A stretch of DNA of 64,000 nucleotides from a virus, in IMG/VR virus record IMGVR_UViG_3300043409_001318, positions 1 to 64,000 of that record, one strand, 5' to 3'. Each line of letters begins with the position of its first letter. Position 1 is the stretch's first letter. The position numbers and the translations under genes are program-made. The notes under the pieces are model-generated. The model was given only the letters and a program-made list of their open reading frames with translations. It was not told where the DNA came from and did no database searches. Positions 675 to 34,320 of the stretch are shown piece after piece.

Positions 675-1820
675 ATGCTTGTTGAACCGCTCGATAATAA
701 GAATGAGTGCGTTGGCTTTTATTGCGAAGGACAAATTGTAAAAGAACCACCAAGTTTTACTGAGACTTGGAGTTATCACCCAGCATTTGAAAGTGATAGT
801 GAATATGCTTATTTGTATTGTAAAGACGACATTAATAAGTTTTGTCCCGAACTATACAAAAAAGATTGGAAGTATGTAAACGAACATATGAAGGCTTATT
901 TCAAGTCATTCATCGCTGCTAAAATTAATCTCGATCATAATTGTATTTTTGATATGATCCCTCATGAATTTCTAATTGAATATTATGAAGTAAAAACACA
1001 AATTGTAAGTCATATTCTTTCTAACTTTCCAAAACCAAAAGATTATGATTATCTTGTTGCTTTGTCCGAAGTTCTTTGGGATATTAAGTCTCGTCCTTTG
1101 AATGTAGATACAACTTCTTTAACAGAGAAGAAACACATTCAAAAGTATAATGATTTAAACCCTTATGTAAAATATGATATCTTTGGAACTAAAACAGGTA
1201 GACTATCAACTCAACCAAAGTCATTCCCTATTCTTCAGCTTGATAAAACACATCGTTCTATACTTCATCCTACAAATGATTGGTTTGTTGAACTTGATTA
1301 CAACGGAGCAGAAGTAAGAACTTTCTTGGCTCTTGCTGGTGTTGAGCAACCAGAAATAGATATTCACCAATGGAACGCAGATCACATTTATAATGGATCA
1401 AAAGATCGTGAAGAAGCCAAACTTTCTTTTCTTGCTTGGTTATATGGAGAAACTAAAAATGAAAAAGCTGAAGTCATTTACAATAAGCAGAAAGTTATTC
1501 AAGAATATTGGGACGGACAGAAAATTACTACATTCTACGGCATGGAAATACCTGCTGATAGTAAGCACGCTGTTAATTATCTTATCCAATCTACTTTCGC
1601 TCAGTTATCTCTTCGCCAAATGATTAAAGTGTTTGACTTTCTAAGAAGTCGTAAGTCTTATATTGCTTTTACGGTTCACGATAATATTGTAATTGATTTG
1701 GCCCAAGAAGATAAAAAAGATCTAAAGCAAATAATTGATATTTATTCTAATACTGATCTTGGGAAGTTCAAAGTAAACCTAAAAGCAGGGACAAATTACG
1801 GAGAATTAAAGAAGTTTTAA
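675..1820 (+). CDS. Minimal family A DNA polymerase (polymerase domain)
   Basis: TGRLS, motif A DYNGAEVR, motif B REEAKLSFLAWLYG, NYLIQST, motif C VHD. Confidence 0.8.
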   Translation: MLVEPLDNKNECVGFYCEGQIVKEPPSFTETWSYHPAFESDSEYAYLYCKDDINKFCPELYKKDWKYVNEHMKAYFKSFIAAKINLDHNCIFDMIPHEFLIEYYEVKTQIVSHILSNFPKPKDYDYLVALSEVLWDIKSRPLNVDTTSLTEKKHIQKYNDLNPYVKYDIFGTKTGRLSTQPKSFPILQLDKTHRSILHPTNDWFVELDYNGAEVRTFLALAGVEQPEIDIHQWNADHIYNGSKDREEAKLSFLAWLYGETKNEKAEVIYNKQKVIQEYWDGQKITTFYGMEIPADSKHAVNYLIQSTFAQLSLRQMIKVFDFLRSRKSYIAFTVHDNIVIDLAQEDKKDLKQIIDIYSNTDLGKFKVNLKAGTNYGELKKF

Positions 1821-1827
1821 CTATTTA
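1820..1827 (+). promoter_or_regulatory. ACTATTTA motif (candidate late promoter)
   Basis: Same octamer found upstream of about 11 genes; followed here by RBS AGGAG and ATG 1847. Confidence 0.55.
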
Positions 1828-1846
1828 AGTATGACAGGAGTTAAAA

Positions 1847-2203
1847 ATGGATCAAATTGTAATGCAGCTTATCCAGATGGAACAACAAATGCGTATATTC
1901 CACTGGCAAACAAAATCACATGCTCGTCATAAAGCGTTTGGTAAAGTATACTCAAACCTTGGAGATCTTATAGATACATTTGCAGAAGCTTGGATGGGAA
2001 GAAATGGAAGAGTACGAGTTACTGGACCAATTGAACTTCAAGATATTGGTGGAGACGTAGAAGGTATTGTAGATGGGTATATAGATACTCTTGTTGGCTT
2101 TACCGATATACTTGATCCACAAAAAGATACAGACCTTTTAAACATTCGTGATGAAATTTTAGGAGAGTTCAATAAACTTAAATACCTTCTAACCCTCAAA
2201 TAA
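1847..2203 (+). CDS. Ferritin/Dps-like four-helix phage protein (DUF5856-like)
   Basis: HWQTKSHARHKAF...Y..L.DLID.FAE..MG pattern. Confidence 0.55.
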   Translation: MDQIVMQLIQMEQQMRIFHWQTKSHARHKAFGKVYSNLGDLIDTFAEAWMGRNGRVRVTGPIELQDIGGDVEGIVDGYIDTLVGFTDILDPQKDTDLLNIRDEILGEFNKLKYLLTLK

Positions 2204-2217
2204 TGGATAACAAATAA

Positions 2218-3585
2218 ATGAAAAATACTATACTTCTTAAAGAAGGCAAAAATTATGCAGAGCTTACACTTCATTTTCCAGAAATGAAGGAACTTCAAAA
2301 ATTAATTGATCCACAAGATTTAGCTCCAAATGGTTTTGAAACTGAACCACATATAACTTTATTATATGGCTTTGATGATAGTGTAGTACCAGAAGATGTA
2401 CAGAAAATATTAGATAAAGTAAAGATATCATCGCTTAAAACAGATAAAATATCTTATTTTCCAGATTTTGGATCTGGAGAACCTTTAAAATTTGATATAA
2501 CTGATCCAGAAATAATGAATTTAAATAAACTATTACAAGCATTACCCCACCCAAGTACAACACACGAATATCGCCCTCATGTTACTATTGCTTACCTTAA
2601 AGCGGGTAGTGCTAAAAAATATGTTGAAGATCCAAGATTTAATTCATTAACGTTTGATTTAAAACCAAAAGAAGCAAAATACTCAAAAAATAAAGTAAAA
2701 ACTAAATTAAATTTAAATGAACAAAATAATACCCTAGTAATGGATAAAATACTTCAAAATTGGGATAAGTTCCTAAATGAGCAAACAGAGCCTTATCAAA
2801 GAAAGATGAAGGCAGGGCATAGTCGTAAAAAGAAAAGAGTTATAGGTCACGGAGGTCAAAAAGCTGGTCCTCCATATACCAAAAAACCTTCTATGGAACG
2901 TTCTAAATCTGCTCCTCCTATGGGAGAGGGTATATTAGATTTCTTTAAAAAAAAAGAAGAACCAATCACTATTCCTCCTTACACAGATTATAATGAAATA
3001 GGAAACACAGGAATATATGTTGGTAGATTTCCTATGGCTAAAGATAGTAAAGAAAATAGAGTATTCCAACCAGATGTATTAAAATTTGATAAAGTATATT
3101 TGGTTGCTGGTGAAGAAGTAGATTTCTTAAATGTAAGACAACCAAATGTTTTGAAAGAAAATGAAGGTAAAATAATTACTGGTAATTTTGATGATACTGC
3201 TACGCCAAAGTTAAACCAACTCCAAGAGATGGAAACTATGGCACAAGATATAGAAAAAGCAGAAGGACAAAAGATATTAGTTGCTTGTAGTGCTGGTAAA
3301 AATCGTTCATCAGCGGTAGCAGCAAGAGCAATAGTATTAAGAGAAGGTGGAATTAAAAGCGATCAAGACTTAGATCATATTGTTAATATGATAAGAAGCG
3401 CAAGAGGTCCAAGTGCCTTAGCTTATACTCACATGCATAAAACAGGTGCTGCAATTGATAAAAACAAACCACCTCAGCATGATGCCTTTATAAACTTTAT
3501 TAAGAATGGTCCATCTGCTCCCCTTGAAGAAGCCCTAAGAAGAGTTATAAGAAGATTGATTAGAGAGCAACATGGAAGAAAATGA
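2218..3585 (+). CDS. Fusion of a 2H phosphoesterase (gp57B/Acb1-like) and a dual-specificity/PTP-like phosphatase
   Basis: Two HxT motifs (PHITLLYG, PHVTIAYL); C-terminal CX5R motif ACSAGKNRS. Confidence 0.75.
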   Translation: MKNTILLKEGKNYAELTLHFPEMKELQKLIDPQDLAPNGFETEPHITLLYGFDDSVVPEDVQKILDKVKISSLKTDKISYFPDFGSGEPLKFDITDPEIMNLNKLLQALPHPSTTHEYRPHVTIAYLKAGSAKKYVEDPRFNSLTFDLKPKEAKYSKNKVKTKLNLNEQNNTLVMDKILQNWDKFLNEQTEPYQRKMKAGHSRKKKRVIGHGGQKAGPPYTKKPSMERSKSAPPMGEGILDFFKKKEEPITIPPYTDYNEIGNTGIYVGRFPMAKDSKENRVFQPDVLKFDKVYLVAGEEVDFLNVRQPNVLKENEGKIITGNFDDTATPKLNQLQEMETMAQDIEKAEGQKILVACSAGKNRSSAVAARAIVLREGGIKSDQDLDHIVNMIRSARGPSALAYTHMHKTGAAIDKNKPPQHDAFINFIKNGPSAPLEEALRRVIRRLIREQHGRK

Positions 3586-3976
3586 TACACCTAATTCAGT
3601 ATTGGTTATAGTTCAAAAAGGCAAAAAAATTCTTGTAGTAGAAAGATCCAAAACAGATGCTTGGATGCCTCTTCATTGGTCTTATCCGGGTGGTCATATT
3701 CAAAAGAATGAAACGCCTTATTATGCTGCGAAAAGAGAACTTGAAGAAGAAACTGGTATTAAAGCAAAGCATGTTGTATATACTGGAATTCGTAATACAG
3801 CTAACGGCAAAATGTATATCTATCTTTGTGATGAATTTGATAATGAAGTAAAATTAAACTTTGAACATTCAGATCACAAATGGATTACTTATGATGAAAT
3901 TGAAGACTTAAACAAGAAAACACCATTTATGAAACAAATTGCTGCTACTGCTCTTGAAATTCCTATGGGATACTAA
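3572..3976 (+). CDS. Nudix hydrolase
   Basis: Nudix box GGHIQKNETPYYAAKRELEEETGI. Confidence 0.9.
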   Translation: MEENDTPNSVLVIVQKGKKILVVERSKTDAWMPLHWSYPGGHIQKNETPYYAAKRELEEETGIKAKHVVYTGIRNTANGKMYIYLCDEFDNEVKLNFEHSDHKWITYDEIEDLNKKTPFMKQIAATALEIPMGY

Positions 3977-4782
3977 TGAATATAATTGGACTTGGTAAAA
4001 CAGGTTGTGTGATAGCAGAGAAATTTAGTAAGTATCCACAATATAAAGTATTTAAGTTATCAATAGAAGAGGGAAACATTGAAGAACAAACAACTCCAGA
4101 AGAATATGAGAGTAAAACAAGCCATGCTCCTTTTACTCTGGACGGTCCTATTGATTTTATTTTAAGTGGTGACGAAATTGTAATTGCTTCTTCCTTAAAA
4201 ATATTGGAGGGTTATAAAAATCATGAGATCAGAATTATATATATTAGACCTTCTCAACGCTTCACTACTGGATCTCAAAGAGCAACAGATAAGATTGTAT
4301 TTAATGTATTACAAGAGTATACACGTTCTAACAAGTTTGTCTCTTTCTATGTAATCAGTTATGAGATGGTAGCAAAAATGGTTGGTAAGATCCCGATTAT
4401 TGGATATTATGATAAACTAAATACGGTTATAGCAGATACAATCCATATGCTTAATTATCTCGATCATATTGAAGGTTCTATGGATACCTTTATGGATATG
4501 CCTACAACTTATTGTATGAAAACGATTGGTTTAATGGATATTGATACAGGAGTAGAAAACTTATTTTATGATCTTGACGAAGTAAGAGACAAGAGATACT
4601 ATTACTCCATCAACGAAGAGCAGTTAAACAATGATGGTGATTTGTTTGATAGTATAAACCAACAAGTAGAAGAAAGCATAACAGACCTTACCAAAGCGAT
4701 GTTCGGTGTTTATCCTTCTCAATACAAAGAAAATTATTGTTATGTTGTTTACTCTTCTCCACATATTCAAGGAATAAAATGA
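3976..4782 (+). CDS. Divergent tubulin/FtsZ-like protein
   Basis: N-terminal IIGLGKTGCVIA resembles the FtsZ/tubulin T1 loop; the GGGTGSG signature is absent. Confidence 0.5.
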   Translation: MNIIGLGKTGCVIAEKFSKYPQYKVFKLSIEEGNIEEQTTPEEYESKTSHAPFTLDGPIDFILSGDEIVIASSLKILEGYKNHEIRIIYIRPSQRFTTGSQRATDKIVFNVLQEYTRSNKFVSFYVISYEMVAKMVGKIPIIGYYDKLNTVIADTIHMLNYLDHIEGSMDTFMDMPTTYCMKTIGLMDIDTGVENLFYDLDEVRDKRYYYSINEEQLNNDGDLFDSINQQVEESITDLTKAMFGVYPSQYKENYCYVVYSSPHIQGIK

Positions 4783-25694: not shown

Positions 25695-26160
25695 AATTGT
25701 ATGGTCTGCTGATAAAGATGAGTGGGCTACAAGTCAAGATTTTTATGATGGACTAAATGCTAAATATAATTTTACATTAGATCCATGTGCCGATATTATA
25801 AATGCGAAATGTCCCAAGTTTTACAATACGAATGATGATGGACTTTCTAAGGATTGGGGAGGAGAAATTGTATTTTGTAATCCTCCTTACTCAAAAGTTA
25901 AAGAATGGACGCATAAAGCACTTGAAGAAAGTAAAAAACCAAATACAAAAGTTGTTTTGTTAGTAGCAGCAAGAACAGATACTAAATTCTTTCATGATTA
26001 TTGCATGAAAGCCAATGAAATCCTTTTTGTTAAAGGAAGACTTAAATTTGGTGGCTCTACTAATTCAGCACCATTTCCATCTATGATTGTTGTTTTTGAC
26101 TCTTCACGATTTGGTCTTATGTTTGGACAGATGGATACCAAAGGAAAGGTAATTAGATGA
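25687..26160 (+). CDS. Phage DNA N6-adenine methyltransferase (Dam-like, orphan)
   Basis: DEWATSQ, FTLDPCA, VFCNPPY, ARTDT, GRLKFG, APFPS. Confidence 0.9.
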   Translation: MNKIVWSADKDEWATSQDFYDGLNAKYNFTLDPCADIINAKCPKFYNTNDDGLSKDWGGEIVFCNPPYSKVKEWTHKALEESKKPNTKVVLLVAARTDTKFFHDYCMKANEILFVKGRLKFGGSTNSAPFPSMIVVFDSSRFGLMFGQMDTKGKVIR

Positions 26161-27194
26161 AATCAGTTAAAAATGTTGATATTGTTTATGGTGCTTCTTG
26201 GGGCGATGAAGGCAAGGGTAAGATTACTCATGTTTTAGCATCAAAGAAAACTCATACGAGAAAAAACTATTATAATTTTGTTTGTAGGTTTCAAGGTGGT
26301 TCAAACGCGGGCCACACAATTTATCACGATGGTAAAAAGTATTCTACTCACATTGTTCCTGCTGGTGTATTTTACGGTATTACATCAGTTATCGGTCCTA
26401 ATTGCGTTGTAAATATTGATGCTTTTTATAAAGAAGTTGAAGAGTTAAAAACTGGTGGAATTGATACTTCACTTATTAAAATTCATCCTTTAGCACATAT
26501 CGTAACAAACGATCATATTGCTGAAGATAAAGCTACATTAGGGCACCTTGGCACAACTTCACAAGGTATTGCACCAGCATATCGAGACAAAGCCGCCAGA
26601 AAGGGTTTACTTGCCAAAGACAGCACAATAGATAAAAGTTATATCTTAACCGAAAAACTATATGGTAATATCTTATGCGAAGGGGCACAAGGATACCATC
26701 TTGACATAAATTATGGAAATTATCCATTTGTAACTTCAAGTGAATGTTTACCATACGGAGCTTGTTCATTAGGATTTGCACCACAGAGGATCAAAAGTAT
26801 ATATGCTTGTGCTAAGATTTATGACACAAGATCCGGTGAAGATCCTTTATTTCCAGCAACTTTACTTGAAGATCAAACCTTAAAATTTATTGGTGATTTA
26901 GGACAAGAATATGGAGTTACCACAGGACGTAGACGTAAAGTAAATTGGCTTAATCTTGATAAGTTAATTGAAGCAGTTGAAGTAGGTGGTGCTACTGATC
27001 TAATCGTTAATAAATGTGATATTTTACAGAAAGTTGGGGTATATCGCTTATTCCACAACTCTAATCTTGTAGAATTTGAGAGCCTTGAACAAATGAAAGA
27101 ATATATACAAATTTACTTATTTAAATCAAGCACTTTACTTAAAAGAGTGTTATTTAGTGGTAATCCAGAACTAATAGAAGGATTTGACCCATGA
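26157..27194 (+). CDS. purA: Adenylosuccinate synthetase (short form)
   Basis: WGDEGKGK, GGSNAGHT, EGAQG, PFVTSS, GVTTGRRR. Confidence 0.92.
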   Translation: MKSVKNVDIVYGASWGDEGKGKITHVLASKKTHTRKNYYNFVCRFQGGSNAGHTIYHDGKKYSTHIVPAGVFYGITSVIGPNCVVNIDAFYKEVEELKTGGIDTSLIKIHPLAHIVTNDHIAEDKATLGHLGTTSQGIAPAYRDKAARKGLLAKDSTIDKSYILTEKLYGNILCEGAQGYHLDINYGNYPFVTSSECLPYGACSLGFAPQRIKSIYACAKIYDTRSGEDPLFPATLLEDQTLKFIGDLGQEYGVTTGRRRKVNWLNLDKLIEAVEVGGATDLIVNKCDILQKVGVYRLFHNSNLVEFESLEQMKEYIQIYLFKSSTLLKRVLFSGNPELIEGFDP

Positions 27195-28023: not shown

Positions 28024-28201
28024 TAGAGCAGATATAAGAGAAGAAATCCTTTATTTCTTGGAGAAGGCATGGGTTAAAAATCCACATTTAAGGATTATGC
28101 AACTTCTTGGTAATGGTTTTACAGAAGGAGATAATTACTACGTTGACGATCAAGCAGTATTAGATTATCTTGTAAAGGTTGCTAACGAAGTGGAGGATTA
28201 A
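28010..28201 (+). CDS. Hypothetical protein
   Basis: W...P.LR..QL pattern; operon overlap. Confidence 0.55.
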   Translation: MNNLDRADIREEILYFLEKAWVKNPHLRIMQLLGNGFTEGDNYYVDDQAVLDYLVKVANEVED

Positions 28202-29235
28202 TGTTTCGTGAAGCCGTAACTTATGATGATGTATTAATGGTTCCTCAATTCAGTGATATTCAAAGTCGTAAAGAAGTAAACATCGGTAATTGGTTAGATG
28301 AAGAAAGAGGTTTATGGTTTAGCCTTCCTATTATATCTTCTCCTATGGATACGGTCACAGAAGACCAAATGGCTATTTTACTTAGTGGAATGGGTGGTCT
28401 TGGAATTATCCATCGGTATAATACTATCCAAAGACAATGCGAAATAGTAAAAATAGTTTCTAATGAAATTGTTGCTAATCAATTTGGTTGTGCTATTGGA
28501 ATTACAGGAGATTATATTGAAAGAGCAGAAGCATTATATAAAGAAGGTGTTAAAATTCTTTGCTTAGATGTTGCTCATGGTGACCATATTTTAATGAAAA
28601 AAGCCCTAATTACTCTTAGGGAGAGATTAGGCGATGGACCGCACCTTATGGCAGGAAATGTTGCGACGATTGATGGATTTAACAATCTCGCTTCTTGGGG
28701 TGCTAATTCAATTCGTGTCGGTATTGGTGGTGGTAGCATTTGTTCTACTCGTATTCAAACTGGTCACGGGGTTCCTTCTTTGGATTCTGTTATAGATTGT
28801 GCGAGGACGCCTTATAATGTTACGATTATTGCAGACGGTGGTATTAGAAATTCTGGTGATATGGTTAAAGCTCTTGGTGTGGGTGCTGATTTTTGTATGT
28901 TGGGTTCAGTTCTCGCTGGAAGCTCTAAAACTCCGGGTGAAATATATAATAACTCAATAACAGGAGAAGCTACTAAAATTTATCGTGGTATGGCTTCAAA
29001 AGACGCACAAATGGATTGGAGAGGTAAAACATCTTCACTTGAAGGGATCTCTACAATTATTAAATATAAAGGTGAGACAAATGCTATTATTAAACAAGTT
29101 GAAAATGGTATTCGCTCTGGCTTTTCTTATAGCGGAGCAAGAACTATTAACGAACTATGGGCTAAAGCTCGTTTTGTTAGACAAACCTCCTCTGGCGCGA
29201 GAGAAAGTGACACTCATATTTTAGCGAGAGCTTAA
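28201..29235 (+). CDS. guaB: IMP dehydrogenase / GMP reductase family, no CBS domains
   Basis: TYDDVL, SPMDTVT, DVAHG, AGNV, GIGGGSICSTR, IADGGI, YRGMAS; GuaB and GuaC cannot be separated by eye. Confidence 0.8.
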   Translation: MFREAVTYDDVLMVPQFSDIQSRKEVNIGNWLDEERGLWFSLPIISSPMDTVTEDQMAILLSGMGGLGIIHRYNTIQRQCEIVKIVSNEIVANQFGCAIGITGDYIERAEALYKEGVKILCLDVAHGDHILMKKALITLRERLGDGPHLMAGNVATIDGFNNLASWGANSIRVGIGGGSICSTRIQTGHGVPSLDSVIDCARTPYNVTIIADGGIRNSGDMVKALGVGADFCMLGSVLAGSSKTPGEIYNNSITGEATKIYRGMASKDAQMDWRGKTSSLEGISTIIKYKGETNAIIKQVENGIRSGFSYSGARTINELWAKARFVRQTSSGARESDTHILARA

Positions 29236-30708: not shown

Positions 30709-31404
30709 ATGCTATTCAATAAAGGCAAGAAAGTTAACGACGACCACGAGCACGAAGATGAAGCAGAAGACGCAGAAGAAGAAAAGGGTAAGAAGCAATC
30801 TGCTTTCTCCCTTATTATGCCTTCGTCTGCTGGGGATAAACCAGATAGTCGCACAATTGGATTATTTGGAGAAGTAGAAGAAGGTAAAATTGCTCTTATT
30901 ATTAGTGCTATGATTGGATTGGCAGAAGACGCAGAAGTAGAAAATCCAATTAATCCAGATGATCCAGAAAGTGAAGTAGAAGTAATTAATCAACCAATTG
31001 AACTTCTACTAAATACTCCCGGTGGATCAGCCGACGATATGTTTGCTCTGTATGATATTATGCGAGTAATTAAGAATAAATGTGATATTGAAACCTTTGG
31101 TATTGGTAAAGTAATGTCTGCTGGAGTTCTTATTTTGGCAGCAGGAACAAAGGGTAAACGTAAGATTGGAAAGAATTGTCGTGTAATGATCCATTCTGTT
31201 ATTGGTGGAAATGTTGGACCTCTTCACAATCTTGAAAACGAAATGAACGAGATTAGATATGTTCAAACTGCTTATCTTAAAGCCTTAGCAGACGAAACCA
31301 ATATGACTTATCAGCAACTACGCAGAATGATTAATCGTAAAGTAAATGTTTATCTTTCAGCAGAAGAAGCAGTTAAGCTTGGTATTGCTGATATTGTCAT
31401 TTAA
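30709..31404 (+). CDS. clpP: ClpP-like protease subunit
   Basis: LNTPGG, IGKVMSAG (catalytic Ser), MIH, YLSAEEAVKLGIAD. Confidence 0.9.
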   Translation: MLFNKGKKVNDDHEHEDEAEDAEEEKGKKQSAFSLIMPSSAGDKPDSRTIGLFGEVEEGKIALIISAMIGLAEDAEVENPINPDDPESEVEVINQPIELLLNTPGGSADDMFALYDIMRVIKNKCDIETFGIGKVMSAGVLILAAGTKGKRKIGKNCRVMIHSVIGGNVGPLHNLENEMNEIRYVQTAYLKALADETNMTYQQLRRMINRKVNVYLSAEEAVKLGIADIVI

Positions 31405-32751: not shown

Positions 32752-34320
32752 ATGAGTAAGCAATACTGCGATGGTCGCTCTTTAAGTGAAGCAATCCTAA
32801 AAGGCGCAAATATATTAGCAGATAACGTTTCTTCTACATTAGGACCAAGAGGAAGAACGGTTATTCTACATGAAAAAGGAAAAACACCAATCATTACGAA
32901 AGATGGTGTCACGGTAAGCAATTATGTTGAACTTTCAGATCCATTTGAGAATTTGGGAGCACAAGTAATTAAACAAGCTTCTCAACAAACTGCTACTCTT
33001 GCTGGTGATGGAACAACAACATCAGTCGTTCTTTCACGCGCAATTCTTCGTGAAGCACAGAAATATCTAATTGCTGGTGTTTCTCCTACCGAATTAAAAA
33101 GAGGAATAGATTTAGCCGTTGACGCTTTGGTAATTAGAATTGGAGAAATAGCACAACCAATTTCGTCCGAAGAAGAAATCGAACATATTGCTTCTATCTC
33201 TGCTAATAACGATAGAACAATTGGTAAATTAATTGCTACTGCGGTAGATAAGGTAGGTAAGGATGGTTCTATCACTATTGAAGAAGCACGGTCAGTCGAT
33301 ACTTCTCTTGATATTGTTGAAGGCTTTCGTTTCGATGCGGGATACCTTGCAGGAGCGTTCATCAACGACGAGAGACGAGGGGTAGTAAAATATGAAGACC
33401 CTTATATTCTTGTAACAGATCATAAATTTGACTCCGTTCAAGATATGTTGCCTGTTCTTGAATTAATCGCAAGAGAAGGAAAACCATTTGTAATTGTAGC
33501 AGATGAAATTGAAGGTCAAGCTCTTGCTGCTCTTATTATGAACGCTATGAGAGGCACAATGAAAGTTGCAGCCGTTAAAGCTCCTCGTTATGGTGAAGAG
33601 CGTAAAAACATTCTTAAAGACCTTGCTATTTCAGTAGGAGCAACTTTTGTTTCTCTTGAAAATAGTATGAAGATTGGCGATGTAAAACTCAAAGATTTTG
33701 GTCGTTCAAAGAAAATTGAAATTGCTAAAAACCTTACCACTATCGTAGGTGGAAAAGGTGATATGGAACAAGTTGACCAAAGAATTGAAACAATTAAAGC
33801 TGAACTTCAACAAACTGAATCAATTTACGAGTGTGAACGTCTACAAGAAAGAATTACTCGTCTTGCTTCTGGTATTGCGATTATTCGTGTAGGTGCTCCA
33901 ACTGAAATTGAAATGATTGAGAAGAAGCACCGTATTGAAGATGCCTTAGAAGCCGTCCGTAGTGCCCAACAGGAAGGTATAGTTGCTGGGGGTGGCGTAG
34001 CCCTCCTTAGAGCAGCAGAAGGGATTGTAGACCCAACAGGGAACGAAGAACAAGCACTTGGTTTCAAGATCATAATGAAGGCTATTGAAGAGCCTGTAAG
34101 ACAAATGGCCCTAAATTCTGGTGAGTCGCCAGACATTATTATTAGTATGATTAAAACAGAACATTCTAATTTTGGTTATGATTTCTTGGGTCGTTCTATG
34201 ATTAATATGGTTGAGAAGGGCATTATTGATCCAGCAAAGGTTACAAGATGTGCTCTTCAAAATGCAGCTTCAGCAGCAGGAACTCTAATCACAACTAACT
34301 ATGCTATTGTCCAAATTTGA
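32752..34320 (+). CDS. groEL: Chaperonin GroEL
   Basis: TLGPRG, ITKDGVTV, AGDGTTT, GGGVALLR, IIDPAKV; no GGM tail. Confidence 0.97.
   Translation: MSKQYCDGRSLSEAILKGANILADNVSSTLGPRGRTVILHEKGKTPIITKDGVTVSNYVELSDPFENLGAQVIKQASQQTATLAGDGTTTSVVLSRAILREAQKYLIAGVSPTELKRGIDLAVDALVIRIGEIAQPISSEEEIEHIASISANNDRTIGKLIATAVDKVGKDGSITIEEARSVDTSLDIVEGFRFDAGYLAGAFINDERRGVVKYEDPYILVTDHKFDSVQDMLPVLELIAREGKPFVIVADEIEGQALAALIMNAMRGTMKVAAVKAPRYGEERKNILKDLAISVGATFVSLENSMKIGDVKLKDFGRSKKIEIAKNLTTIVGGKGDMEQVDQRIETIKAELQQTESIYECERLQERITRLASGIAIIRVGAPTEIEMIEKKHRIEDALEAVRSAQQEGIVAGGGVALLRAAEGIVDPTGNEEQALGFKIIMKAIEEPVRQMALNSGESPDIIISMIKTEHSNFGYDFLGRSMINMVEKGIIDPAKVTRCALQNAASAAGTLITTNYAIVQI

What the first reader, a model, noticed from the sequence alone, without database searches (positions are those of the whole stretch)
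2218..3976. 2H phosphoesterase plus dual-specificity phosphatase polyprotein next to a Nudix hydrolase: candidate anti-signalling payload
Seen: one ORF joins a 2H domain (PHITLLYG/PHVTIAYL) to a CX5R phosphatase (CSAGKNR). The linker has LNE sites, a second targeting-like peptide and a basic patch. A Nudix gene overlaps its 3' end. Known: T4 gp57B/Acb1 is a 2H phosphoesterase that degrades CBASS cyclic nucleotides; 2H enzymes also include RNA 2',3'-cyclic phosphodiesterases. Inference: a cleavable, possibly pre-packaged kit that removes nucleotide second messengers, RNA end phosphates or host phospho-signals. I know of no description of this fusion.
Basis: partly seen in the sequence, partly recalled or inferred. 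Interest (0 to 1): 0.85.

Follow-up and report, generated by a model that had tools for sequence, protein, structure and literature searches.

The report
Tagged phage 2H-phosphatase fusion enzyme
An uncultured freshwater phage has fused an enzyme that opens cyclic phosphates to one that removes the freed phosphate, at a gene slot where related phages place different enzymes behind the same conserved "address" peptide; it is probably a kit for trimming RNA or signal-nucleotide ends, but neither the target nor the delivery route is shown.

Summary
ORF 2218-3585 (455 aa) joins an intact 2H phosphoesterase to an intact Cys phosphatase (C357-x5-R363, general acid D326). A MutT-like Nudix gene overlaps its end by 14 nt.

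**The fusion is real.** Three diverged relatives (84, 55 and 44% identity, independent assemblies) keep the frame across in-frame linker indels.

**How it arose.** A ~0.5-kb 2H cassette sits in front of the start codon of an older gene. It is flanked by the only two copies of TAATGGATAA on this strand of the genome.

**The older gene fills a polymorphic slot** (DUF5856 -> X -> Nudix).
- X always starts with an amphipathic helix tag and a ~50-aa basic, disordered, highly conserved module.
- The body of X varies between relatives: none, unknown, phosphatase, DUF5661+phosphatase, or 2H+phosphatase.
- Elsewhere the same module is attached to Nudix and Pol-beta nucleotidyltransferase proteins.

**Most likely chemistry:** two-step removal of cyclic or terminal phosphates from RNA or oligonucleotide ends.

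**Acb1-type signal degradation** stays possible. However, the 2H domain is closest to uncharacterised Flavobacteriia-phage 2H proteins and fails the Acb1 and LigT family cut-offs.

**Virion packaging** is only suggested, by a T4-type prohead protease in the genome and seven proteins sharing the tag.

The scan's other notes on this genome flag the shared tags, and I tested them in part.

The parts
1820..1828 (+). Promoter-like motif ACTATTTAA, 18 nt upstream of the DUF5856 start; heads the operon
   Evidence: The core ACTATTTA occurs 32 times on + and 7 times on -. 24 of the 32 lie 3-51 nt upstream of an ORF start. It is also present 11 nt before the phosphatase ATG in relative L002, which lacks DUF5856 and 2H.
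1847..2203 (+). DUF5856 gene (118 aa), the upstream neighbour in nearly all relatives
   Evidence: PF19174 at 8.9e-20. Synteny. A separate protein, P0067, fuses 2H with DUF5856.
2201..2210 (+). Left copy of the 10-nt direct repeat TAATGGATAA (DUF5856 stop plus the first 8 nt of the old phosphatase ORF)
   Evidence: There are only two copies on the + strand of the 184-kb genome, at 2201 and 2738. The unfused relative L008 reads TAATGGATAA straight into the phosphatase gene.
2203..2217 (+). Remnant 4-codon mini-ORF (old start codon plus 3 codons and a stop), directly followed by the 2H ATG
   Evidence: Read from the sequence. That it keeps a stop/start coupling chain is inference.
2218..3585 (+). 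Whole fused ORF, 455 aa
2218..2712 (+). 2H phosphoesterase domain (aa 1-165), HxT at H45 and H121
   Evidence: Pfam 2_5_RNA_ligase2 at 1.4e-7 for the domain alone. AF2 pLDDT 93. Z 12-14 to Usb1, LigT, CPDase and Acb1.
2713..2739 (+). Linker (aa 166-174), starts with L-N-E, carries in-frame indels between fused relatives
   Evidence: Alignment A1
2738..2747 (+). Right copy of the direct repeat TAATGGATAA; its TAA is out of frame, so the 2H frame runs into the old ATG (M175)
2740..2781 (+). Amphipathic helix tag (aa 175-188), the N-terminus of the stand-alone gene
   Evidence: A tag-like pattern occurs 8 times in the genome. Seven of these are at N-termini of unrelated proteins, counting M175 here. 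AF2 predicts a short helix.
2782..2931 (+). Basic, disordered, highly conserved ~50-aa module (aa 189-238; pI 10.6)
   Evidence: Nearly invariant in relatives whose catalytic domains are only 33-45% identical. pLDDT below 50. Portable to other proteins.
2977..3513 (+). Cys (DSP-type) phosphatase domain (aa 254-432): D326, C357, R363
   Evidence: Z 15.5, rmsd 2.6 A over 140 residues to Tk-PTP. D326 aligns with the Asp of the IPDFTAP loop in ShufPTP and Tk-PTP. PHROG 10650 at 1.8e-8.
3514..3582 (+). C-terminal basic amphipathic helix (aa 433-455; pI 11.7); ends 3 codons earlier than in relatives
3572..3976 (+). MutT-like Nudix hydrolase (134 aa), overlaps by 14 nt; constant downstream partner of the slot
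   Evidence: PF00293 at 7.6e-21. Best NCBIfam match is MutT, 49 bits against a cut-off of 148. Synteny.
3976..4782 (+). Conserved 268-aa protein with no family match; always follows the Nudix gene
   Evidence: No Pfam, PHROG or NCBIfam hit. Synteny as for the Nudix gene.

Best explanation
The ORF is a genuine, selectively maintained fusion of two active enzymes that most likely act in sequence on nucleic-acid or oligonucleotide ends.

1. The 2H domain opens a 2',3'-cyclic phosphate, or cuts a 3'-5' bond through such an intermediate. This leaves a terminal 2'/3'-phosphomonoester.
2. The Cys phosphatase (nucleophile C357, general acid D326, R363) removes that phosphate.
3. The co-translated MutT-like Nudix hydrolyses a pyrophosphate linkage on the same class of substrates. 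Candidates are a 5'-triphosphate or cap, or nucleoside triphosphates.

The fusion arose when a 2H cassette was inserted, in frame, in front of the start codon of the gene filling a polymorphic slot (DUF5856 -> X -> Nudix). That slot sits in the replication and nucleotide-metabolism region of a phage group with a T4-type head protease.

The constant part of X is an N-terminal helix tag plus a basic disordered module. This acts as an address: it either tethers the enzyme to RNA or DNA, or directs it to a common phage partner. The enzymatic body is exchangeable.

**Shown:** domain identity, intact catalytic residues, reality and origin of the fusion, slot polymorphism, and portability of the module.

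**Inferred:** the order of the reactions, the substrate (RNA ends or linearised cyclic oligonucleotides from host defence), the role of the Nudix, and what the address binds.
For: **Catalytic competence.** The HxT/HxT tetrad is invariant in 76 relatives. C, G, N, R and S of the P-loop and D326 are invariant or nearly so. The models are confident.

**Sequential logic.**
- Acb1-type and LigT-type 2H enzymes both leave terminal phosphates through a cyclic intermediate (PMC9117128; PMC9503650).
- A general-acid-bearing DSP fits a phosphomonoester on a sugar hydroxyl (established PTP mechanism).
- Pfam lists 2H-SAK and PTP-SAK families, both described as domains of Swiss Army Knife proteins.
- The nearest 2H relatives are fused to CCA/poly(A) polymerase heads.

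**Fusion maintained.** There are four lineages with in-frame linker indels. The insertion scar is a 10-nt repeat present only twice on this strand of the genome.

**Slot and address.** The same position holds 123-, 257-, 281-350-, 313- and 455-498-aa genes, all starting with the tag and the module. The module is also found on Nudix, Pol-beta NTase and DUF5661 proteins. These partners act on nucleotides or RNA ends. The module and the C-terminal tail are strongly basic (pI 10.6 and 11.7).

**Context.** The phage carries 11 tRNA genes.
Against: - No biochemical data exist for this clade.
- The complete 184-kb genome has no RNA ligase (Rnl1, Rnl2, RtcB), no AAA_33 polynucleotide kinase and no KptA. 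A self-contained phage RNA-repair pathway is therefore missing. The control search for the Rnl1 model matched nothing in any control genome, so that one absence is weak.
- The phosphatase fold does not indicate a substrate; all DSP subfamilies are tied.
- Protein phosphatase activity is not excluded.
- Some relatives carry the address with no enzyme at all, so the address may have a function of its own, unrelated to catalysis.
- 2H and phosphatase could act on different targets.
Confidence: 0.45

Rival explanations
1. Acb1-like counter-defence. The 2H domain degrades cyclic oligonucleotide immune signals (CBASS, type III CRISPR and similar). The phosphatase and Nudix are independent additions that clear products or other signals.
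For: - The best solved sequence matches of the family profile are the Acb1-group enzymes PDE-9 and FBB1 Acb1.
- Foldseek's top PDB hit is PDE-9.
- 59 of 76 nearest relatives hit Pfam Acb1.
- The 2H part is present or absent between phages whose phosphatases are 84-93% identical, as expected for an arms-race gene.
- Phage 2H enzymes of many clades cleave messengers (bioRxiv 10.1101/2025.08.21.671373).
Against: - The query itself has no Acb1 Pfam hit.
- TM-scores to named Acb1 models are 0.50-0.68, against 0.72-0.82 for uncharacterised Flavobacteriia-phage 2H proteins.
- Z-scores are tied with LigT, CPDase and Usb1.
- Two structural groups in the 2025 survey cleaved none of 18 messengers.
- Known Acb1 action needs no phosphatase.
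Confidence: 0.3
2. Packaged payload (this concerns delivery and is compatible with either chemistry). The helix tag works like the T4 capsid targeting sequence. The protein is loaded into proheads, cut by the T4-type protease at the L-N-E sites into 2H and phosphatase parts, and injected with the DNA.
For: - The genome encodes a Peptidase_S77 (T4 gp21-type) protease (8e-29).
- Seven unrelated proteins share an N-terminal tag ending in (L/I)xE. The tag is conserved on orthologues in relatives.
- The locus is polymorphic, with a constant leader and variable bodies. T-even internal proteins are described the same way (PMC3012670).
- The flanks are basic, like T4 internal proteins.
- 2H domains are fused to MuF or portal proteins, or lie inside ~1000-aa phage proteins annotated as structural or capsid-morphogenesis proteins (PMC5512222).
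Against: - The gene lies in the replication operon, not the head module.
- The tag is internal in the fused form.
- The basic module also occurs at the C-terminus of Nudix proteins.
- The number of (L/I)xE sites is not above chance.
- An earlier, untested note reports a different shared leader on head-module proteins, which could be the real targeting signal.
- There are no virion proteome data.
Confidence: 0.25
3. Nucleotide salvage, like the bifunctional CpdB. 2',3'-cyclic NMPs from host RNA breakdown are converted to 3'-NMP and then to nucleosides. The Nudix sanitises or trims the NTP pools for phage DNA synthesis.
For: - The operon sits among nucleotide-metabolism genes: dCMP deaminase, RNR, ThyX-type synthase, PurA-like synthetase and a GMP-reductase-like gene.
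- The best Nudix matches are MutT-type NTP pyrophosphatases.
Against: - The long basic disordered module and tail point to a polymer or partner rather than free nucleotides.
- The 2H part comes and goes between near-identical phages.
- Enzyme-less versions of the slot gene exist.
Confidence: 0.12
4. ADP-ribose cyclic phosphate clearance. 2H opens Appr>p, the phosphatase removes the 1''-phosphate, and the Nudix splits ADP-ribose.
For: Each step is a known activity of its superfamily (PMC9503650). More distant slot phosphatases hit the PTP-NADK family.
Against: There is no KptA/Tpt1 in the genome to make Appr>p. I did not search for Macro or sirtuin genes. The Nudix is MutT-like rather than ADPR-type.
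Confidence: 0.05
5. The fusion is an assembly error, a sequencing error or a recent frameshift, and has no function.
For: The right junction carries TAATG in another frame, so a 1-nt shift could in principle create or break the fusion.
Against: Fused ORFs appear in independent assemblies at 84, 55 and 44% identity. Catalytic motifs are conserved and indels are multiples of three.
Confidence: 0.02

Closest known systems
Acb1 / phage 2H phosphodiesterases (T4 gp57B, FBB1 Acb1, PDE-9 of Burkholderia phage BCSR5)
   Same: 2H fold, the HxT/HxT tetrad and a shared Y-x-P-H-x-T-x-x-Y signature at the second motif. These are the best solved sequence matches of the family profile. The enzymes are metal-independent and leave phosphate-terminated products.
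   Different: The query fails the Acb1 Pfam model. Structural similarity is lower than to uncharacterised Maribacter and Tenacibaculum phage 2H proteins. Where Acb1 has its lid, this domain continues into a linker and a second enzyme. No substrate is known.
RNA end-healing enzymes: T4 Pnkp, the 2H and DSP-PTPase domains of 'Swiss Army Knife' proteins (Pfam PF22547, PF22784), LigT/ThpR
   Same: They follow the same logic: open the cyclic phosphate, then remove the phosphomonoester. The two Pfam SAK families are described as domains of the same protein type.
   Different: This ORF matches neither SAK family and is below the LigT equivalog cut-off (20.6 against 65.7 bits). The phage has no RNA ligase or polynucleotide kinase. 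T4 Pnkp uses a HAD phosphatase rather than a Cys phosphatase (own knowledge).
T4 internal proteins and Alt, with their capsid targeting sequence
   Same: A short N-terminal leader ending in (L/I)xE is shared by unrelated proteins. The locus is polymorphic, with a constant leader and diverse bodies. A gp21-type protease is present.
   Different: The gene lies in the replication region, the leader is internal in the fusion, an additional 50-aa basic module can also sit at a C-terminus, and there is no virion evidence.
Small atypical dual-specificity phosphatases (Tk-PTP, ShufPTP, VHR, DUSP23)
   Same: Fold (Z 13-15.5), the CX5R loop, and a general-acid Asp about 31 residues upstream.
   Different: Sequence identity is 12-22%. 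It falls below the Pfam DSPc cut-off. It carries N- and C-terminal basic extensions. The P-loop has Asn before Arg, as in RNA triphosphatases (own knowledge), yet it keeps the general acid those enzymes lack.

Membership tests
2H phosphoesterase superfamily | Two H-x-T/S motifs on an internally duplicated fold | tested here: met
   H45-I-T47 and H121-V-T123. Both His are invariant in 76 relatives. Pfam PF13563 scores 29.5 bits against a cut-off of 27. Z 12-14 to many solved 2H enzymes.
Acb1 (PF23474) | Match to the family model above its cut-off (27 bits) | tested here: not met
   No Acb1 hit for the query at E <= 0.1, nor for the domain alone at E <= 0.001. 59 of 76 nearest relatives do hit it at E <= 0.001.
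Acb1 (PF23474) | Closest structural neighbours are Acb1 enzymes; terminal lid with stacking aromatics | tested here: inconclusive
   Z 12.3 (FBB1) and 12.0 (PDE-9), tied with LigT, CPDase and Usb1. TM 0.50-0.68 to named Acb1 models against 0.72-0.82 to other phage 2H proteins. I could not evaluate lid residues from the model summary.
Acb1 (PF23474) | Cleavage of cyclic di- and trinucleotides; protection from CBASS | not testable with these tools
   Needs enzyme assays and phage challenge.
LigT/ThpR RNA 2',3'-cyclic phosphodiesterase (TIGR02258) | Equivalog score cut-off | tested here: not met
   20.6 bits against a cut-off of 65.7.
Cys-based PTP/DSP superfamily | CX5R P-loop, general-acid Asp, PTP fold | tested here: met
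   C357...R363. D326 aligns with the Asp of ShufPTP and Tk-PTP. Z 15.5 over 140 residues. Pfam DSPc scores only 22.3 bits against a cut-off of 33.5, so this is a divergent member.
RNA 5'-triphosphatase branch of DSPs (BVP, PIR1/DUSP11, capping enzyme) | No general-acid Asp (own knowledge); closest fold matches | tested here: inconclusive
   PIR1 and BVP are among Foldseek's top hits, but tied with many DSPs, and they are not in the top VIA rows. An invariant Asp is present at the general-acid position, which argues against this branch.
Nudix hydrolases / MutT | Nudix box G-x5-E-x7-R-E-U-x-E-E-x-G-U; family model | tested here: met
   The box is found at residues 41-63. PF00293 scores 75 bits against a cut-off of 21.1. 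The MutT equivalog is not met (49 against 148 bits), so the specificity is open.
T4-type capsid-targeted internal proteins | Common N-terminal leader on unrelated proteins, ending at a gp21-type (L/I)xE site; gp21-type protease encoded | tested here: met
   Seven N-terminal occurrences of the tag. S77 protease at genome position 154166-154612, 97 bits against a cut-off of 27.
T4-type capsid-targeted internal proteins | Presence in virions and cleavage after the leader | not testable with these tools
   No isolate or virion proteome is available.
Swiss Army Knife RNA-repair proteins (PF22547 2H-SAK, PF22784 PTP-SAK) | Match to the SAK-specific domain models | tested here: not met
   Neither family appears for the query at E <= 0.1. 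One relative of each domain gives a weak hit.

The most novel reading that the evidence does not exclude
The helix tag plus basic module is a cargo-loading and ejection address. A group of uncultured freshwater and marine phages uses it to load interchangeable nucleotide- and RNA-end-modifying enzymes into the head: 2H phosphodiesterase, Cys phosphatase, Nudix and Pol-beta nucleotidyltransferase. The 2H-phosphatase ORF would then be a polyprotein cut by the T4-type protease at its L-N-E sites. Signal-degrading or RNA-healing enzymes would enter the cell with the DNA, before any phage gene is expressed.
Probability: 0.2. Interest if true: 0.8.

Novelty: new variant of a known kind. Interest (0 to 1): 0.55.

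Why it matters
Phage 2H enzymes are now recognised as major tools against nucleotide-based immunity, and their multidomain forms are barely studied.

This case gives a natural fusion in which a second enzyme should act on the 2H product, which makes substrate and pathway directly testable.

More broadly, it exposes a polymorphic gene slot. One ultra-conserved, disordered address peptide is combined there with different nucleotide- and RNA-end enzymes, across many uncultured lake and ocean phages.

Two outcomes are possible:
- If the address is a capsid-loading or nucleic-acid-tethering signal, it would define a set of early-acting phage effectors and offer a handle for finding more.
- If it is not, the address is still an unexplained, strongly selected peptide worth a binding screen.

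Tried and rejected
- **Phage genome collection.** A DNA search found no match. A protein search found only the 2H part, at no more than 39% identity, and no fusion.
- **Window ORFs.** BLAST of the leader, the N-terminus and the C-terminal tail against all window ORFs found only tag-level similarity. The basic module and tail are unique to this gene in the genome.
- **210-aa gene in L006.** I tested the gene between PolA and DUF5856 as a possible separate 2H gene. hhalign gave probability 1.9%, so I rejected it.
- **RNA-repair partners.** Genome searches for KptA, Rnl2, Rnl1, AAA_33 kinase and RtcB found none. The Rnl1 model matched nothing in any control genome, so that result is weak.
- **T4 late promoter.** TATAAATA is not enriched upstream of genes: 2 of 17 copies on +.
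- **Atlas feature searches.** The phosphatase returned only generic small viral DSP clusters. The enzyme-less slot protein returned only unnamed viral clusters below 0.9.
- **Literature.**
  - No paper combines phage, dual specificity phosphatase and Acb1.
  - None mentions DUF5856 or DUF5661.
  - BCSR5 was not found by name.
  - The supplements of the 2025 survey mention no Maribacter or Tenacibaculum proteins.
  - The Burroughs and Aravind 2016 paper on Swiss Army Knife proteins is not held. What I say about it rests on Pfam family names and my own memory.
- **N-terminus of the 2H domain as a first targeting peptide.** It does not fit the tag pattern and is missing in relative P0019, so I rejected it.
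- **Not run.** I did not run a complex prediction, because no defined partner was available.
Full report
**Setting**

The window is the first 64 kb of a 184,352-bp virus record that CheckV rates as complete. Nearly all genes lie on the + strand and G+C is about 33%. No isolate in the phage collection is related at the DNA level.

The region around the finding is a replication and nucleotide-metabolism block. It holds a split PolA, gp32, a UvsX/RecA-type recombinase, dCMP deaminase, a 5'-3' exonuclease, DnaB, RNR and thymidylate synthase. It also holds DnaE, a short PurA-like synthetase, a GMP-reductase-like gene, ClpP and GroEL. There are 11 tRNA genes at 51.9-53.0 kb.

**Observation**

ORF 2218-3585 encodes 455 aa. 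The main features are:
- **2H domain, residues 1-165.** It has both HxT motifs, at H45 and H121.
- **Phosphatase, residues 254-432.** It is a Cys phosphatase with C357-x5-R363.
- **Nudix ORF, 3572-3976.** It overlaps by 14 nt and has a complete Nudix box.

AlphaFold2 models are confident. The 2H domain has pLDDT 93. The phosphatase core has block means of 79-95 over model residues 81-220, while its first ~70 residues are disordered.

DALI-like scores confirm both folds:
- The 2H domain scores Z 12-14 to Usb1, archaeal and E. coli LigT, plant CPDase, Acb1 and PDE-9.
- The phosphatase scores Z 15.5 to Tk-PTP and 13-15 to many DUSPs.

The family's invariant D326 aligns with the Asp of the IPDFTAP loop of ShufPTP and Tk-PTP. 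It lies 31 residues before the Cys, which is the general-acid position in this enzyme class (established PTP knowledge).

**The fusion is real and has a visible origin**

The large protein database holds fused relatives at 84% (466 aa), 55% (430 aa) and 44% (498 aa) identity. It also holds about thirty stand-alone phosphatases that start exactly at M175 of this ORF. The fused relatives differ in the linker by in-frame indels and keep all catalytic motifs.

Gene order in relatives:
- L002 (phosphatase 93% identical): PolA is followed directly by the stand-alone phosphatase, with neither DUF5856 nor 2H.
- L008, L006 and L011: DUF5856 is followed by the stand-alone gene through a TAATG overlap.

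In the window, the string TAATGGATAA is the DUF5856 stop plus the first eight bases of the old gene. It occurs at 2201 and again at 2738, and nowhere else on this strand of the genome. Between the two copies lie a 4-codon remnant ORF and the 2H cassette. At the right copy the TAA is out of frame, so the 2H frame reads into the old ATG.

The old Met is kept in all four fused lineages. An additional internal start giving the free phosphatase is therefore possible, but this is inference.

**The slot and its address**

The position between DUF5856 and the Nudix gene is polymorphic. Relatives carry one of the following there:
- a 123-aa protein with no enzyme (L014);
- a 257-aa protein with an unknown body (L016);
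- phosphatases of 281-350 aa;
- a DUF5661-phosphatase of 313 aa;
- the 2H-phosphatase fusions.

All begin with an amphipathic helix and a ~50-aa basic module. That module is nearly invariant even where the catalytic domains share only 33-45% identity.

Searching with the 65-aa leader alone found 93 proteins. Besides phosphatases, they include:
- Nudix proteins carrying the module at their C-terminus;
- a Pol-beta-type nucleotidyltransferase;
- DUF5661 proteins;
- bodies without any family match.

The module is basic (13 K/R in 50 residues, pI 10.6) and the C-terminal helix even more so (pI 11.7). A small two-Cys element moves between positions in relatives.

Within this genome the helix tag pattern occurs eight times, seven of them at N-termini of unrelated proteins. 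The orthologous tag on the gene after the 5'-3' exonuclease is conserved across the phage group.

The operon is headed by ACTATTTAA. The core ACTATTTA is strongly strand-biased (32 against 7 copies) and lies just upstream of 24 ORFs across the genome.

**What kind of 2H enzyme**

| Test | Result |
|---|---|
| Profile of 76 nearest stand-alone relatives against solved structures | PDE-9 2.4e-6; FBB1 Acb1 4.2e-5; archaeal LigT-like 2.5e-3; plant CPDase 0.03 |
| Those 76 relatives against Pfam | 59 hit Acb1; 71 hit the generic 2_5_RNA_ligase2 family |
| The query itself against Pfam Acb1 | no hit |
| The query against the LigT equivalog | 20.6 bits, cut-off 65.7 |
| Predicted viral structures | Maribacter phage Colly_1 TM 0.78-0.82; Tenacibaculum phage PTm1 0.69-0.76; named Acb1 proteins 0.50-0.68 |

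A 2025 preprint shows that phage 2H enzymes form many clades with different messenger specificities. Two of its structural groups were inactive on all 18 messengers tested. It found 13 of 75 enzymes to be multidomain (HAD, RNase, acetyltransferase, hydrolase, protease), with no Cys phosphatase listed.

The domain is therefore a member of the phage 2H radiation next to Acb1. It is not a demonstrated Acb1.

**Mechanism**

Both Acb1-type and LigT-type reactions pass through a 2',3'-cyclic phosphate and leave a terminal phosphomonoester. A DSP with a general acid is suited to remove a phosphate from a sugar hydroxyl. The RNA-triphosphatase branch lacks that acid (own knowledge), and fold ranks do not single that branch out.

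A fusion of the two is best explained by consecutive steps on one substrate. Several lines point to RNA or oligonucleotide ends:
- the basic flanks of the phosphatase;
- the enzymes found with the same address (Nudix, nucleotidyltransferase);
- 2H relatives fused to CCA/poly(A) polymerase heads;
- the two Pfam 'Swiss Army Knife' families for 2H and DSP-PTPase domains.

Against a classical repair pathway, the genome has no RNA ligase, polynucleotide kinase, RtcB or KptA.

I give the two-step end-processing reading 0.45. Signal degradation in the strict Acb1 sense gets 0.3. These two overlap in chemistry. The Nudix is MutT-like but below every equivalog cut-off, so its substrate is open.

**Delivery**

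The genome encodes a T4 gp21-type prohead protease. T-even internal proteins are described as diverse defence proteins that share only a capsid targeting sequence. 2H domains fused to MuF or portal proteins have been predicted to be injected effectors. Large phage proteins annotated as structural or capsid-morphogenesis proteins also carry a similar 2H fold.

The tag pattern and the polymorphic slot fit that picture.

Several points count against it:
- the gene sits in the replication operon;
- the tag is internal in the fusion;
- the basic module can be C-terminal;
- the (L/I)xE count is not above chance;
- an earlier untested note reports another shared leader in the head module.

I put packaging at 0.25.

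**Novelty and verdict**

The domains and the general idea of multidomain 2H enzymes are known. New here:
- this particular fusion in a phage;
- its insertion scar;
- above all, the polymorphic slot with a portable, ultra-conserved address joined to several nucleotide- and RNA-end enzymes.

None of this appeared in the literature I could search. I class it as a new variant of a known kind, of moderate interest. The next experiments are clear.

Noticed in passing
window 26157-27194 and 28201-29235: A short (345 aa) PurA-like adenylosuccinate synthetase sits about 1 kb upstream of a GMP-reductase/IMPDH-like gene. PHROG places it in the family named for PurZ. The NCBIfam PurZ model gives 113 bits against a cut-off of 300, and PurA models give about 246 bits against cut-offs near 400. 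It may indicate purine remodelling or a 2-aminoadenine genome.
   Followed up: partly
genome-wide; window 1820, 19022, 23122, 24648, 24673, 29603, 31406, 58304: The motif ACTATTTA occurs 32 times on the + strand and 7 times on the - strand. 24 of the + copies lie 3-51 nt upstream of ORF starts, in replication, tagged-gene and structural regions. It is probably a phage promoter element.
   Followed up: partly
window 9402, 46105; genome 72363, 73655, 74924, 75791: Six further unrelated proteins start with the same amphipathic tag (hydrophobic pair, x, N/E, W, x, x, F/Y, L/I, x, E). The one after the 5'-3' exonuclease keeps the tag in six related phages.
   Followed up: partly
genome 154166-154612 (outside the window; L013): A T4 gp21-type prohead protease (Peptidase_S77, 8e-29) in a phage that replicates with DnaE plus a split PolA rather than a family B polymerase.
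   Followed up: partly
window 30709-31404 and 32752-34320: Phage-encoded ClpP (PF00574, 3.5e-32) and a GroEL-type chaperonin (PHROG 5725, 8e-140) lie close together.
   Followed up: no
relatives P0012, P0018-P0022, P0027, P0028, P0200, P0206, P0225 (not in this genome): A ~45-aa basic element with two Cys appears after the address module in some slot proteins and at the C-terminus in others, like a mobile mini-domain. No copy exists in this genome.
   Followed up: partly
window 3577-3585: The ORF stops three codons earlier than in relatives, which end in three further residues after G-R-K. The old tail is still readable after the stop.
   Followed up: no
protein P0067 (499 aa, metagenomic): Another protein fuses a closely related 2H domain with DUF5856, the family encoded just upstream of this ORF. 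This hints at a functional link between the two.
   Followed up: no
window 3976-4782: A conserved 268-aa protein always follows the Nudix gene. It has a Gly-rich N-terminus and no match in Pfam, PHROGs or NCBIfam.
   Followed up: no
locus L011 15808-16942: One relative carries a large gene with an ART-PolyVal domain, a polyvalent-protein ADP-ribosyltransferase, a few kb downstream of the slot.
   Followed up: no
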